Below, piece by piece: positions 10,529 through 10,838 of a stretch of 18,165 nt of DNA. This stretch comes from a virus. Taxonomy: Duplodnaviria; Heunggongvirae; Uroviricota; Caudoviricetes. The notes below the pieces were generated by a model. That model did no database searches. It saw only the letters and a program-made list of their open reading frames with translations, and was not told the origin of the DNA. The stretch lies in the IMG/VR virus record IMGVR_UViG_2874951433_000003; one strand, 5' to 3'. Each line of letters opens with the position of its first letter. The stretch's first letter is position 1. A program made the position numbers and the translations under genes.

Positions 10529-10604
10529 GGCCCTTTAGCTCAGTGGTGAGAGCGAGCGACTCATAATCGCCAGGTCGCTGGTTCAAATCCAGCAAGGGCC
10601 ACCA
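10529..10604 (+). tRNA. tRNA with anticodon CAU (Ile2-type or Met; ileZ-like), prophage-encoded
   Basis: GGCCCTTTAGCTCAGTGGTGAGAGCGAGCGACTCATAATCGCCAGGTCGCTGGTTCAAATCCAGCAAGGGCCACCA: full cloverleaf, anticodon loop CTCATAA, closely resembles E. coli tRNA-Ile2. Confidence 0.85.
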
Positions 10605-10605
10605 A

Positions 10606-10682
10606 CCGCCACTAGCTCATCAGGAAAGAGCGTCAACCCTTTAAGTTGAGTGTGCGAGGTTCGAGTCCCCGGTGGCGGTCCA
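10606..10682 (+). tRNA. Atypical tRNA-like gene: anticodon loop CCTTTAA (UUU, Lys-type) with C at position 33 and one T-stem mismatch
   Basis: CCGCCAC/GTGGCGG acceptor stem, GCTC/GAGC D-stem, TCAAC/GTTGA anticodon stem, TTCGAGT T-loop, encoded CCA. Deviations from canon: C33 and an A-C mismatch in the T-stem. Confidence 0.5.
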
Positions 10683-10684
10683 GT

Positions 10685-10760
10685 GCCGACTTGGCTCAGT
10701 AGGTAGAGCAACTGACTTGTAATCAGTAGGTCACCAGTTCGATTCCGGTAGTCGGCACCA
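10685..10760 (+). tRNA. tRNA-Thr-like (anticodon UGU), prophage-encoded
   Basis: GCCGACTTGGCTCAGTAGGTAGAGCAACTGACTTGTAATCAGTAGG...AGTCGGCACCA: acceptor, D and anticodon stems all pair; loop CTTGTAA; one T-stem mismatch. Confidence 0.75.
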
Positions 10761-10763
10761 TAT

Positions 10764-10838
10764 GCGGGCATCGTATAATGGCTATTACCTCAGCCTTCCA
10801 AGCTGATGATGCGGGTTCGATTCCCGCTGCCCGCTCCA
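10764..10838 (+). tRNA. tRNA-Gly (anticodon UCC), identical to the E. coli glyT sequence as I recall it
   Basis: GCGGGCATCGTATAATGGCTATTACCTCAGCCTTCCAAGCTGATGATGCGGGTTCGATTCCCGCTGCCCGCTCCA. Confidence 0.88.

What the first reader, a model, noticed from the sequence alone, without database searches (positions are those of the whole stretch)
10529..10838. Prophage tRNA cluster (CAU, UUU-like, UGU, UCC) that includes one atypical tRNA
Four tRNA genes are packed head to tail downstream of a candidate late promoter/terminator pair, the position where Stx phages carry ileZ-argN-argO. The gene content here is different. The second gene (10606..10682) folds into a full cloverleaf but has C rather than the near-universal U at position 33, and an A-C mismatch in the T-stem. 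It may be a decaying pseudo-tRNA, or a functional tRNA with altered decoding. The fourth gene is identical to host glyT as I recall it, suggesting recent capture or gene conversion. No stx genes follow: only about 290 bp separate the last tRNA from the holin.
Basis: seen in the sequence. Interest (0 to 1): 0.45.

Follow-up and report, generated by a model that had tools for sequence, protein, structure and literature searches.

The report
Prophage tRNA cluster with one drifting gene
Four tRNA genes in a decayed Shigella-type prophage are an ordinary phage set for rarely used codons, and the odd second gene is a relative of a Shiga-toxin-phage arginine tRNA whose anticodon loop has mutated and which now seems to be drifting with little or no selection.

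Summary
Four head-to-tail tRNA genes lie at 10529-10838. The second (10606-10682) has C33 and an A51·C63 mismatch, the fourth is 100% identical to K-12 glyT, and 292 bp separate the cluster from the holin.

Gene 1 is identical to ileZ. Gene 2 is a homologue of argN: same acceptor, D and T arms, with the loop changed from CUUCGAA to CCUUUAA.

Other prophages carry the same cluster with a canonical tRNA-Arg(UCU) in second place, and a few carry a canonical U33 tRNA-Lys(UUU) on this scaffold. The likely path is Arg(UCU), then UUU, then U33C.

Within the C33 lineage, gene 2 has about twice the alleles of its neighbours. Its changes break structure as often as they preserve it, none is compensatory, and it diverges about as fast as nearby non-coding DNA. 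Its Rfam score is 44.4 bits, against 52-56 for canonical relatives.

Best reading: a rare-codon tRNA set (AUA, ACA, GGA) in which the former Arg gene is under relaxed constraint and probably weak or dead. A nuclease-evading tRNA-Lys is not excluded.

RefSeq already annotates the cluster in hundreds of genomes. Interest is low to moderate.

The parts
10392..10427 (+). tR'-like hairpin (GCAAACAAAACCCGC / GCGGGTTTTTTGTGC) with a T-run, downstream of the broken Q gene
   Evidence: Inverted repeat I2. The terminator scan calls the same hairpin on the minus strand. The sequence was read directly.
10491..10519 (+). Sigma-70 promoter match TTGCAA-17-TATTAT followed by a G+C-rich stretch, 9 nt upstream of the first tRNA. 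It probably gives transcription of the tRNA operon that does not depend on Q (inferred).
   Evidence: Promoter scan, 9 of 12 matches. The hexamers and spacer are conserved with PPompW and two Stx-phage lineages.
10529..10604 (+). tRNA-Ile2 type gene (anticodon CAU, presumably lysidine-modified, reading AUA); identical to Stx-phage ileZ
   Evidence: ARAGORN. Rfam 72.5 bits. PGAP annotates tRNA-Ile. Identical to ileZ in L002 and L005. About 92% identical to tRNA-Ile genes of K-12-lineage strains.
10606..10682 (+). Atypical argN-scaffold tRNA: loop CCUUUAA (C33, anticodon UUU), A51·C63 mismatch, C1-G72, U73, encoded CCA
   Evidence: ARAGORN. Rfam 44.4 bits. 84% identical to argN and 91% to a canonical U33 Lys(UUU) homologue. 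Shows signs of relaxed constraint.
10685..10760 (+). tRNA-Thr(UGU), equal to host thrU except A9G; keeps the host U36-AAUC|A41 sequence
   Evidence: AriB cleavage site from PMC12409363.
10764..10838 (+). tRNA-Gly(UCC), 100% identical to host glyT
10845..10970 (+). Two perfect hairpins in the 292-bp spacer (10845-10855/10880-10890 and 10898-10911/10957-10970); role unknown
   Evidence: Inverted repeats I3 and I1. No Rfam match at E<=1.
11046..11065 (+). Short GC hairpin with a T-run (CCGC-TTTT-GCGG-TTTTTT); a weak candidate terminator for the tRNA operon, just upstream of the holin
   Evidence: Read from the sequence. Resembles the GCTCGCTTTTGCGGGC-TTTT element after argO in Stx clusters. Not called by the terminator scan.
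11131..11346 (+). Class II (P21-type) holin, the only surviving lysis gene; an IS66-family element follows
   Evidence: Pfam PF04971, E=1.4e-35; IS66 Orf2 and IS66 zinc-finger domains at 12116-13055.
9642..10502 (+). Antiterminator Q pseudogene (in-frame stop at 9957-9959)
   Evidence: Pfam PF06323 profile positions 1-100 and 102-213 fall on two consecutive same-frame ORFs. The translation shows ...EEHHKA*LLWCYSG....

Best explanation
The cluster is a phage accessory tRNA operon. It sits between the Q/tR' region and the lysis genes of a lambdoid prophage, which in this window is a dead remnant at serU inside a Shigella-type ipaH island. It has its own sigma-70 promoter match, and in intact relatives late transcription would also run through it (inferred). 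Genes 1, 3 and 4 are intact tRNAs for AUA, ACA and GGA, codons that phage genes use more than the host does. Gene 2 belongs to the argN scaffold family. Its ancestor in this cluster was most likely a tRNA-Arg(UCU) reading the rare AGA/AGG codons. C35U turned the anticodon into UUU, which in E. coli should move charging from ArgRS to LysRS because both enzymes read position 35 (established knowledge; not tested here). That made the gene redundant with the host's many lysT-family genes. The lineage in this window then picked up U33C, and it also carries the A51·C63 mismatch. Since then the gene appears to have evolved under relaxed constraint. It is probably transcribed and cut out by RNase P along with its neighbours (inferred). 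It likely contributes little or nothing to decoding, so it is a young pseudo-tRNA or at best a weak tRNA-Lys. Shown here: homology, loop changes, the sister clusters, and the excess of uncompensated variation. Inferred: order of mutations, charging, expression, and loss of function.
For: Homology: gene 2 aligns without gaps to argN and differs from it mainly in the anticodon arm. Sister clusters: 20 loci in one scan and 36 in another carry Ile-Arg(UCU)-Thr-Gly with loop CUUCUAA and fully standard stem pairing (A51-U63 or G51-C63). L009 and L017 carry a canonical U33 Lys(UUU) on the same scaffold, only 7 differences from the window gene. Scaffold family: 99.5% of pair cells are standard and 8 of 21 pairs changed on both sides; the only two unpaired cells are the A·C of this allele and of one argN. 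Rfam bits: 44.4 here, against 56.4, 53.6, 53.2 and 52.1 for canonical relatives. In 61 C33-lineage loci collected with an anchor outside gene 2, gene 2 has 12 alleles and 17 non-major copies, against 6/7, 6/13 and 7/12 for genes 1, 3 and 4. It has about 15 of 33 mutational events in 27.5% of the scored length (binomial p=0.02). These include U8C, G53A, a D-stem G-to-U change and a 7-nt deletion, and none is compensatory. Pooling both scans, by my own tally, stem changes split 7 structure-preserving to 7 structure-breaking. Mean pairwise divergence per 100 nt is 1.77 for gene 2, 1.55 for downstream non-coding DNA, and 0.15, 0.63 and 0.92 for genes 1, 3 and 4. In complete E. coli genomes the allele is exact in 279 records and 95-99% identical in 472; for gene 1 the figures are 2730 and 308. 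PGAP leaves the commonest derived copies unannotated. Codon use in phage genes of L001: AUA 18%, AGA+AGG 19%, ACA 23%, GGA 16% of their families, and AAA 71%.
Against: The exact C33 allele is still the majority form (44 of 61 loci). It passes the Rfam and PGAP thresholds and is annotated tRNA-Lys without a pseudogene flag. It is carried by an isolated phage with intact Q and lysis genes. It keeps U8, A14, G18G19, the T-loop, A37 and the 36-UAA-38 determinant for t6A. The anticodon UUU and C33 never vary in the 61 loci, although only about one loop hit is expected by chance. The statistics are modest (p about 0.02). Genes 3 and 4 may be kept uniform by gene conversion with host copies, and the non-coding comparator may itself be constrained. 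U33 is not strictly essential for decoding in published in-vitro work, which I recall but did not check here. No expression or charging data were available.
Confidence: 0.6

Rival explanations
1. Gene 2 is a working tRNA-Lys(UUU) that tRNA-targeting defence nucleases fail to recognise. It would keep lysine codons readable when PARIS (AriB), PrrC or RloC destroy host tRNA-Lys, as the T5 and SP15 tRNA-Lys variants do.
For: AriB cuts within U36-AAUC|A41, and the U39A and U16C changes block or impair cleavage (PMC12409363). Gene 2 has U36-AAGUU41 and C16. PrrC cuts directly 3' of U33, which is the base changed here (PMC2610378). Phage tRNA-Lys rescued phages from PrrC170, whereas E. coli tRNA-Lys gave only low restoration (PMC11555353). 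The body of gene 2 is unlike host lysT. UUU arose on a non-host scaffold, and the C33 form is the commonest UUU form.
Against: The variation pattern shows no sign of purifying selection on gene 2. The canonical U33 Lys(UUU) on the same scaffold would already lack the AriB site, so C33 is not needed to escape PARIS. The neighbouring tRNA-Thr(UGU), another main AriB target, keeps the host cleavage site. C33 should weaken the U-turn needed for ribosome binding. No experiment addresses C33 with any of these nucleases.
Confidence: 0.13
2. Gene 2 is simply an ordinary, working extra tRNA-Lys. C33 and the A·C pair are tolerated, and it adds to AAA/AAG decoding capacity during phage growth.
For: It has a full cloverleaf with all tertiary-contact bases, an encoded CCA and 36-UAA-38. 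PGAP and ARAGORN call it tRNA-Lys. It is present in isolated phages.
Against: K-12 has at least five lysT-family genes in one locus alone. AAA use in the phage genes is 71% of Lys codons, which from memory is near the host norm. U73 replaces the A73 used by LysRS (established knowledge). The Rfam score is about 9-12 bits below canonical relatives. Relaxed constraint applies here as above.
Confidence: 0.15
3. Gene 2 is kept for a role other than decoding. It could be a tRNA-shaped spacer that lets RNase P separate ileZ from the Thr gene in a very tightly packed operon, or a decoy that occupies anticodon nucleases.
For: The genes are only 1-3 nt apart. The acceptor, D and T arms are more conserved than the anticodon arm across the scaffold family. 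Aberrant loops (C33, A33, 8-nt) recur only in this scaffold among the 164 distinct tRNAs predicted in the fetched loci.
Against: That conservation is partly built in, because the loci were found by matching the 3' half of the gene. Derived copies also carry U8C, a deleted U12 and G53A, which damage the tRNA shape itself. RNase P can recognise the downstream tRNA without any upstream tRNA (established knowledge).
Confidence: 0.07

Closest known systems
ileZ-argN-argO tRNA cluster of Stx-converting phages (for example Stx2a_F349, AP012530; phage 2851; phi296)
   Same: Same place in the phage map (after Q and tR', before the next late genes). Same promoter hexamers. ileZ is 100% identical. Gene 2 follows ileZ after a single base, as argN does in the F349-type cluster (7 bases in phi296), and shares its acceptor, D and T arms, U73 and, with F349, the A51·C63 mismatch.
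   Different: The loop is CCUUUAA rather than CUUCGAA, with compensated changes in the anticodon stem. argO is replaced by thrU-like and glyT-like genes. No stx genes follow.
Sister cluster Ile-Arg(UCU)-Thr-Gly in Shigella and E. coli prophages (for example L027, L183; S. flexneri SFBU1023)
   Same: Same four-gene order, and the same thrU-TAT-glyT junction used as search anchor; the L027-type ileZ differs by a few bases.
   Different: Its second gene has U33, C35 (anticodon UCU) and fully standard stem pairing, and the one copy scored (L027) reaches 56.4 bits. The commonest form has G73. Its Thr gene often has C16/C20.
Canonical argN-scaffold tRNA-Lys(UUU) (L009 in E. coli 8178; L017)
   Same: Same scaffold, D-loop and anticodon UUU; 7 differences from the window gene.
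   Different: It has U33, all-standard stems with no G·U pairs, and loop CUUUUAU. It sits in a two-gene Ile-Lys cluster and scores 53.2 bits.
Defence-evading phage tRNA-Lys(UUU) of T5 and SP15 (PARIS and PrrC escape)
   Same: A phage-borne UUU tRNA whose anticodon arm and D-loop differ from host tRNA-Lys at positions that matter for AriB (39-41 and 16).
   Different: Those tRNAs come from virulent phages and were shown to work in rescue experiments. The papers read here do not discuss position 33. The gene here is untested and shows relaxed constraint.
tRNA pseudogenes and anticodon-shifted (remolded) tRNA genes
   Same: A point change in the anticodon gives the gene a new nominal identity, followed by uncompensated lesions.
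   Different: The gene is young. The major allele is still a complete cloverleaf above the detection thresholds.

Membership tests
Bacterial elongator tRNA (Rfam RF00005) | Cloverleaf with 7/4/5/5-bp stems and a score above the gathering threshold | tested here: met
   44.4 bits against a gathering score of 29, with full-length model match 1-71. One non-standard pair (A51·C63).
Bacterial elongator tRNA (Rfam RF00005) | U at position 33 (U-turn) | tested here: not met
   C33. The register is fixed by gapless alignment to 18 homologues. All 142 distinct tRNAs outside this scaffold in the fetched loci have U33.
Bacterial elongator tRNA (Rfam RF00005) | Conserved tertiary-contact bases (U8, A14, G18G19, T54-Psi55-C56, purine 37) and a 3' CCA | tested here: met
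   All are present in the sequence.
Stx-phage argN (tRNA-Arg UCG) | Second gene after ileZ, with homologous sequence | tested here: met
   1-nt spacer after an identical ileZ. 84% identity to F349 argN over 77 nt with no gaps.
Stx-phage argN (tRNA-Arg UCG) | Arginine anticodon with C35, the main ArgRS identity element (established knowledge) | tested here: not met
   The anticodon is UUU (U35). A20 is retained.
tRNA-Lys(UUU) | Anticodon U34-U35-U36 and 36-UAA-38 (needed for t6A37) | tested here: met
   The loop is CCUUUAA. The UAA requirement is from PMC13276492.
tRNA-Lys(UUU) | Discriminator A73, and descent from or similarity to host lysT-type genes | tested here: not met
   It has U73. The body is unlike lysT and derives from the argN scaffold.
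tRNA-Lys(UUU) | Charging by LysRS and decoding of AAA/AAG | not testable with these tools
   Needs aminoacylation and translation assays.
Defence-evading phage tRNA | Lacks the nuclease recognition sequence present in the host tRNA | tested here: met
   It has UAAGUU and C16, where the AriB determinants are UAAUCA and U16. The base 5' of the PrrC cut is changed.
Defence-evading phage tRNA | Functional in translation and maintained by selection | tested here: inconclusive
   The variation pattern looks like relaxed constraint, but samples are small and no functional data exist.
tRNA pseudogene | Evolves at about the neutral rate, with uncompensated structure-breaking changes | tested here: inconclusive
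   Pairwise divergence 1.77 against 1.55 per 100 nt for non-coding DNA. 15 of 33 events fall in gene 2 (p=0.02). Stem changes split 7 preserving to 7 breaking (my tally). The direction fits a pseudogene but the power is limited.
tRNA pseudogene | No mature, charged transcript | not testable with these tools
   No expression data were available.

The most novel reading that the evidence does not exclude
The C33 argN-scaffold gene is a working tRNA-Lys(UUU) that temperate lambdoid phages use to keep translating lysine codons when host anticodon nucleases (PrrC, which cuts right after position 33, PARIS AriB, or RloC) destroy host tRNA-Lys. The U33C change itself would be the escape mutation. More broadly, the argN scaffold would be a phage platform on which anticodons are repeatedly swapped (UCG, UCU, UUU, and possibly UAU and UUG).
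Probability: 0.12. Interest if true: 0.65.

Novelty: new member of a known kind. Interest (0 to 1): 0.3.

Why it matters
The practical value is in annotation. Hundreds of RefSeq E. coli genomes label this gene tRNA-Lys, yet it descends from a phage arginine tRNA, lacks U33, and is probably weak or inactive. tRNA gene counts and codon-supply estimates for these strains should not treat it as a normal lysine tRNA. It also gives a clear, datable example of a phage tRNA changing nominal identity through a single anticodon base and then decaying. If the minority reading were true, it would extend tRNA-based escape from PARIS and PrrC defences from virulent T5-like phages to common temperate prophages of E. 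coli and Shigella.

Tried and rejected
1. Minimum-free-energy folding was uninformative. Even the genuine thrU-like gene does not fold into a cloverleaf, so those z-scores were not used.
2. Alternative registers that would put a U at position 33 (for example reading UUA) need an anticodon stem that cannot pair, and they contradict the gapless family alignment. Rejected.
3. Using the immediate flanks as a neutral standard failed in the larger sets. The flanks are swapped wholesale between phage backgrounds and many loci are truncated, so segregating-site counts there are meaningless. Only the 18 full-length haplotypes were used for that comparison.
4. The UGU-to-UUU change in the thrU-like gene of L008/L108 first looked like a second, selected switch to UUU. 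With about 33 events over 280 nt, roughly 1.4 hits on the 12 anticodon bases are expected by chance, and that prophage is decaying. It is not counted as evidence.
5. The 3'-half pattern also hit Christensenellaceae and Clostridia MAGs. These are unrelated tRNA-Lys(CUU) genes in host tRNA arrays.
6. Literature searches for ileZ/argN/argO and for this Ile-Lys-Thr-Gly cluster found nothing usable in the held library.
7. The promoter-like hit at 10752-10779 lies inside genes 3 and 4 and is taken as chance. The 62-aa minus-strand ORF at 10583-10771 is antisense to the tRNAs and is taken as spurious.
8. No protein homology, structure prediction or metagenome scans were needed.

Full report
OBSERVATION. 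ARAGORN finds four + strand tRNA genes at 10529-10604 (CAU), 10606-10682 (UUU), 10685-10760 (UGU) and 10764-10838 (UCC). Rfam's tRNA model scores them 72.5, 44.4, 72.5 and 64.9 bits, against a gathering score of 29. The genes are 1, 2 and 3 nt apart and all encode CCA. The second gene has the anticodon loop CCUUUAA, which means C at position 33, and a T stem CGAGG/CCCCG with an A51·C63 mismatch. The fourth gene is 75/75 identical to K-12 glyT. The third equals thrU except for A9G. The holin (Pfam PF04971) starts at 11131, 292 bp after the last tRNA, with no stx genes between. Two details need correcting. The CAU gene is a tRNA-Ile2 type, which PGAP annotates as tRNA-Ile and which is identical to Stx-phage ileZ. 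The element directly upstream is a tR'-like hairpin with a T-run (10392-10427) followed by a sigma-70 match TTGCAA-17-TATTAT at 10491-10519, and that promoter match is conserved in Stx phages.

CONTEXT. The window is a thoroughly decayed lambdoid prophage at serU, of the Shigella ipaH-island type. In order it holds: host tRNA-Asn and tRNA-Ser; an integrase (3369-4406, minus strand); two IS1 transposase genes; hok/sok; DUF968; RusA; an antiterminator Q with an in-frame stop at 9957-9959; the tRNA cluster; a P21-type holin; IS66-family and IS3-family elements where the rest of the lysis cassette should be; a tail-fibre fragment; an IpaH-type E3 ligase gene (15212-16855, minus strand); and the CssrB sRNA. 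No complete E. coli genome holds the window collinearly. The 601 bp around the cluster are present at 80% coverage or more in 463 complete E. coli genomes, where RefSeq annotates tRNA-Ile, tRNA-Lys, tRNA-Thr and tRNA-Gly.

WHAT GENE 2 IS. Window 10479-10750 aligns at about 83% identity with the ileZ-argN-argO region of Stx phages. Gene 1 is identical to ileZ. Gene 2 aligns without gaps to argN. The two share the acceptor stem CCGCCAY/RUGGYGG, C1-G72, U73, the D arm and the T arm. The Stx2a F349 argN even has the same A51·C63 mismatch. The differences are concentrated in the anticodon arm. The loop is CUUCGAA in argN and CCUUUAA here, and two stem pairs have changed in a compensated way (G30-C40 to A30-U40, and U27·G43 to U27-A43).

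THE SCAFFOLD FAMILY. Scanning IMG/VR and one genome per GTDB species with the 3' half of the gene recovered 51 distinct sequences. The main cluster architectures were as follows. 43 loci have Ile-Arg(UCG)-Arg(UCU), the Stx type. 39 have Ile-[C33 UUU]-Thr-Gly, the window type. 20 have Ile-Arg(UCU)-Thr-Gly, a direct sister cluster whose second gene has loop CUUCUAA and a perfect A51-U63 pair; its commonest form has G73. 3 have Ile-[C33 UUU with U12 deleted]-Arg(UCU), the PPompW type. 2 have Ile-Lys(UUU), with a canonical U33 loop CUUUUAU and perfect stems. One locus has an 8-nt loop CUUUUUAU, and UTI89 carries a UCU form. Across 19 canonical members, 99.5% of pair cells are standard pairs and 8 of 21 pairs have changed on both sides, which exceeds all shuffled and slid controls. 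The only two unpaired cells are the A·C of the window allele and of one argN. The scaffold is therefore a real tRNA family under structural selection, and its anticodon has moved between UCG, UCU and UUU. The window allele's nearest relative is the canonical Lys(UUU) form (7 differences), followed by the UCU forms (8-11) and argN (12-14). The simplest path is Arg(UCU), then C35U giving UUU, then U33C. The order of steps is inferred.

IS GENE 2 STILL UNDER SELECTION? Rfam scores for canonical relatives are 56.4, 53.6, 53.2 and 52.1 bits. The window allele scores 44.4 and the A·C-bearing F349 argN scores 43.0. The commonest derived copies (L007, L008, PPompW) fall below the reporting threshold, and PGAP does not annotate them. 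To avoid selecting loci on gene 2 itself, I rescanned IMG/VR with the phage-specific thrU-TAT-glyT junction. Of 119 loci plus the window, 61 carry the C33 lineage and 36 carry Arg(UCU) forms. Within the C33 lineage, gene 2 has 12 alleles and 17 non-major copies. Gene 1 has 6 and 7, gene 3 has 6 and 13 (mostly a polymorphism at position 9), and gene 4 has 7 and 12. About 15 of 33 independent events fall in gene 2, which makes up 27.5% of the scored length (binomial p=0.02). They include U8C, G53A, a D-stem G-to-U change, C1·A72 and a 7-nt deletion, and none is a compensatory double change. Pooling both scans, by my own tally, stem hits split 7 structure-preserving to 7 structure-breaking, which is roughly what unselected transitions in G-C pairs would produce. 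Among 18 full-length haplotypes, mean pairwise divergence per 100 nt is 1.77 for gene 2 and 1.55 for the downstream non-coding DNA, compared with 0.15, 0.63 and 0.92 for genes 1, 3 and 4. In complete E. coli genomes the gene 2 allele is exact in 279 records and 95-99% identical in 472. Gene 1 is exact in 2730 and near-exact in 308. That last comparison is biased, because gene 1 often occurs in several prophages per genome and only the best copy per record is counted. In the isolated phage PhiR47_1, genes 1 and 4 are identical to the window, gene 3 carries the host-type A9, and gene 2 has two changes. Phage 689R5 carries the exact gene 2 allele, which its annotators did not call as a tRNA. All 22 non-U33 predictions among 164 distinct tRNAs in the 1.9 Mb fetched belong to this scaffold, though ascertainment through the 3' half contributes to that.

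WHY THE CLUSTER EXISTS. In 22 phage genes of the related prophage L001, AUA is 18% of Ile codons, AGA+AGG 19% of Arg, ACA 23% of Thr and GGA 16% of Gly, while AAA is 71% of Lys. From memory, the first four are well above E. coli averages and the last is about average. Supplying tRNAs for rare codons therefore explains an Ile-Arg(UCU)-Thr-Gly set but not a UUU gene. The host already has at least five lysT-family genes in one locus. This fits the idea that the C35U change made gene 2 redundant and opened it to drift.

THE ALTERNATIVE WORTH KEEPING. tRNA-Lys(UUU) is the target of PrrC, which cuts directly 3' of U33. It is also a target of the PARIS effector AriB, which cuts within U36-AAUC|A41 and is blocked or impaired by U39A and U16C. 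Phage tRNA-Lys variants rescue phages from both systems. Gene 2 has UAAGUU and C16, so by sequence it should not be an AriB substrate, and its changed base is the one next to the PrrC cut. It also keeps the 36-UAA-38 sequence needed for t6A37. Several points count against this reading. The canonical U33 Lys form on the same scaffold would already escape AriB. The adjacent Thr(UGU) gene keeps the host AriB site. C33 should weaken the U-turn needed for ribosome binding. The population data show no purifying selection on gene 2. I put this reading at about 0.12-0.13.

VERDICT. The cluster is a known kind of element that is already annotated in hundreds of genomes. The new points are that the gene labelled tRNA-Lys is an argN-family gene whose anticodon shifted, that a canonical Arg(UCU) sister and a canonical U33 Lys form both exist, and that the C33 lineage looks to be under relaxed constraint. 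Function was not tested, so the pseudo-tRNA conclusion carries moderate confidence (about 0.6).

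Noticed in passing
window 9642-10502: The antiterminator Q gene is broken by an in-frame stop at 9957-9959 (...EEHHKA*LLWCYSG...). The downstream part runs on to 10502, through the tR'-like hairpin, so the normal end also seems to be lost. Late transcription from this remnant should be dead.
   Followed up: partly
window 11445-14512: IS66-family genes (11445-13055) and an IS3-family element (13356-14512) directly follow the holin, in place of the endolysin and Rz genes. 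A DUF4376 tail-fibre fragment follows at 14418-15032.
   Followed up: partly
window 15212-17162: An IpaH-type NEL E3 ligase gene (minus strand, 547 aa) sits next to the CssrB sRNA (16983-17162, 230 bits). This is a Shigella-type ipaH island built on a prophage remnant. A further Rfam hit, IS009, lies at 17919-18122.
   Followed up: partly
window 4809-5312 (+) and 5788-6291 (-): Two IS1 transposase ORFs of 167 aa in opposite orientation lie less than 500 bp apart, just inside the prophage next to the integrase. hok/sok (Rfam sok, 118.9 bits) is at 7454-7629.
   Followed up: no
L008 780-855 and L108 (E. coli O6:H16 2014EL-1346-6): In this decaying copy of the cluster, the thrU-like third gene has anticodon UGU changed to UUU (plus A26G), and PGAP annotates it tRNA-Lys. 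One such hit is expected by chance, but it is a second nominal switch to UUU within the same cluster.
   Followed up: partly
L011 701-778 (E. coli CI5): This argN-scaffold gene has an 8-nt anticodon loop CUUUUUAU and otherwise perfect stems (ARAGORN reads a 4-base anticodon 'tttt'; Rfam 47.3 bits; PGAP says tRNA-Lys). It could be a frameshift-suppressor-like tRNA, or simply a slip in the T run.
   Followed up: no
Arg(UCU)-lineage loci, for example L027 458-530 (minus strand): The tRNA-Thr(UGU) of the sister cluster has C16 and C20 where host thrU has U16 and U20. U16C is reported to impair cleavage of tRNA-Lys by PARIS AriB, and tRNA-Thr(UGU) is a main AriB target. The window's own Thr gene has the host bases.
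   Followed up: no
L004 1502-1579 (Yersinia phage YeP1); L043 and L054: A sub-lineage of the same scaffold has A33, with loops CAUUGCC and CAUAUAA. The YeP1 record flags its copy as pseudo. This loss of U33 is independent of the C33 lineage, and YeP1 is an isolated phage.
   Followed up: no
window 10839-11130: The spacer before the holin holds three perfect hairpins (10845-10890, 10898-10970, 10969-11023) and matches no Rfam family. In the Stx-type and Ile-Lys clusters the sRNA STnc100 lies a short way downstream of the tRNAs (for example L005 1892-2097, 158 bits), but not here.
   Followed up: partly
window 10693 (position 9 of the Thr gene): Position 9 of the thrU-like gene varies among copies (A in 48, G in 8, C in 2 of 61). 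The window has G, while host thrU has A.
   Followed up: partly
L134, L138, L139 and other Christensenellaceae and Clostridia MAG contigs: The 25-nt pattern taken from the 3' half of gene 2 also matches tRNA-Lys(CUU) genes in Firmicutes tRNA arrays. This is a coincidental match of T arm and acceptor and is not the same family.
   Followed up: partly
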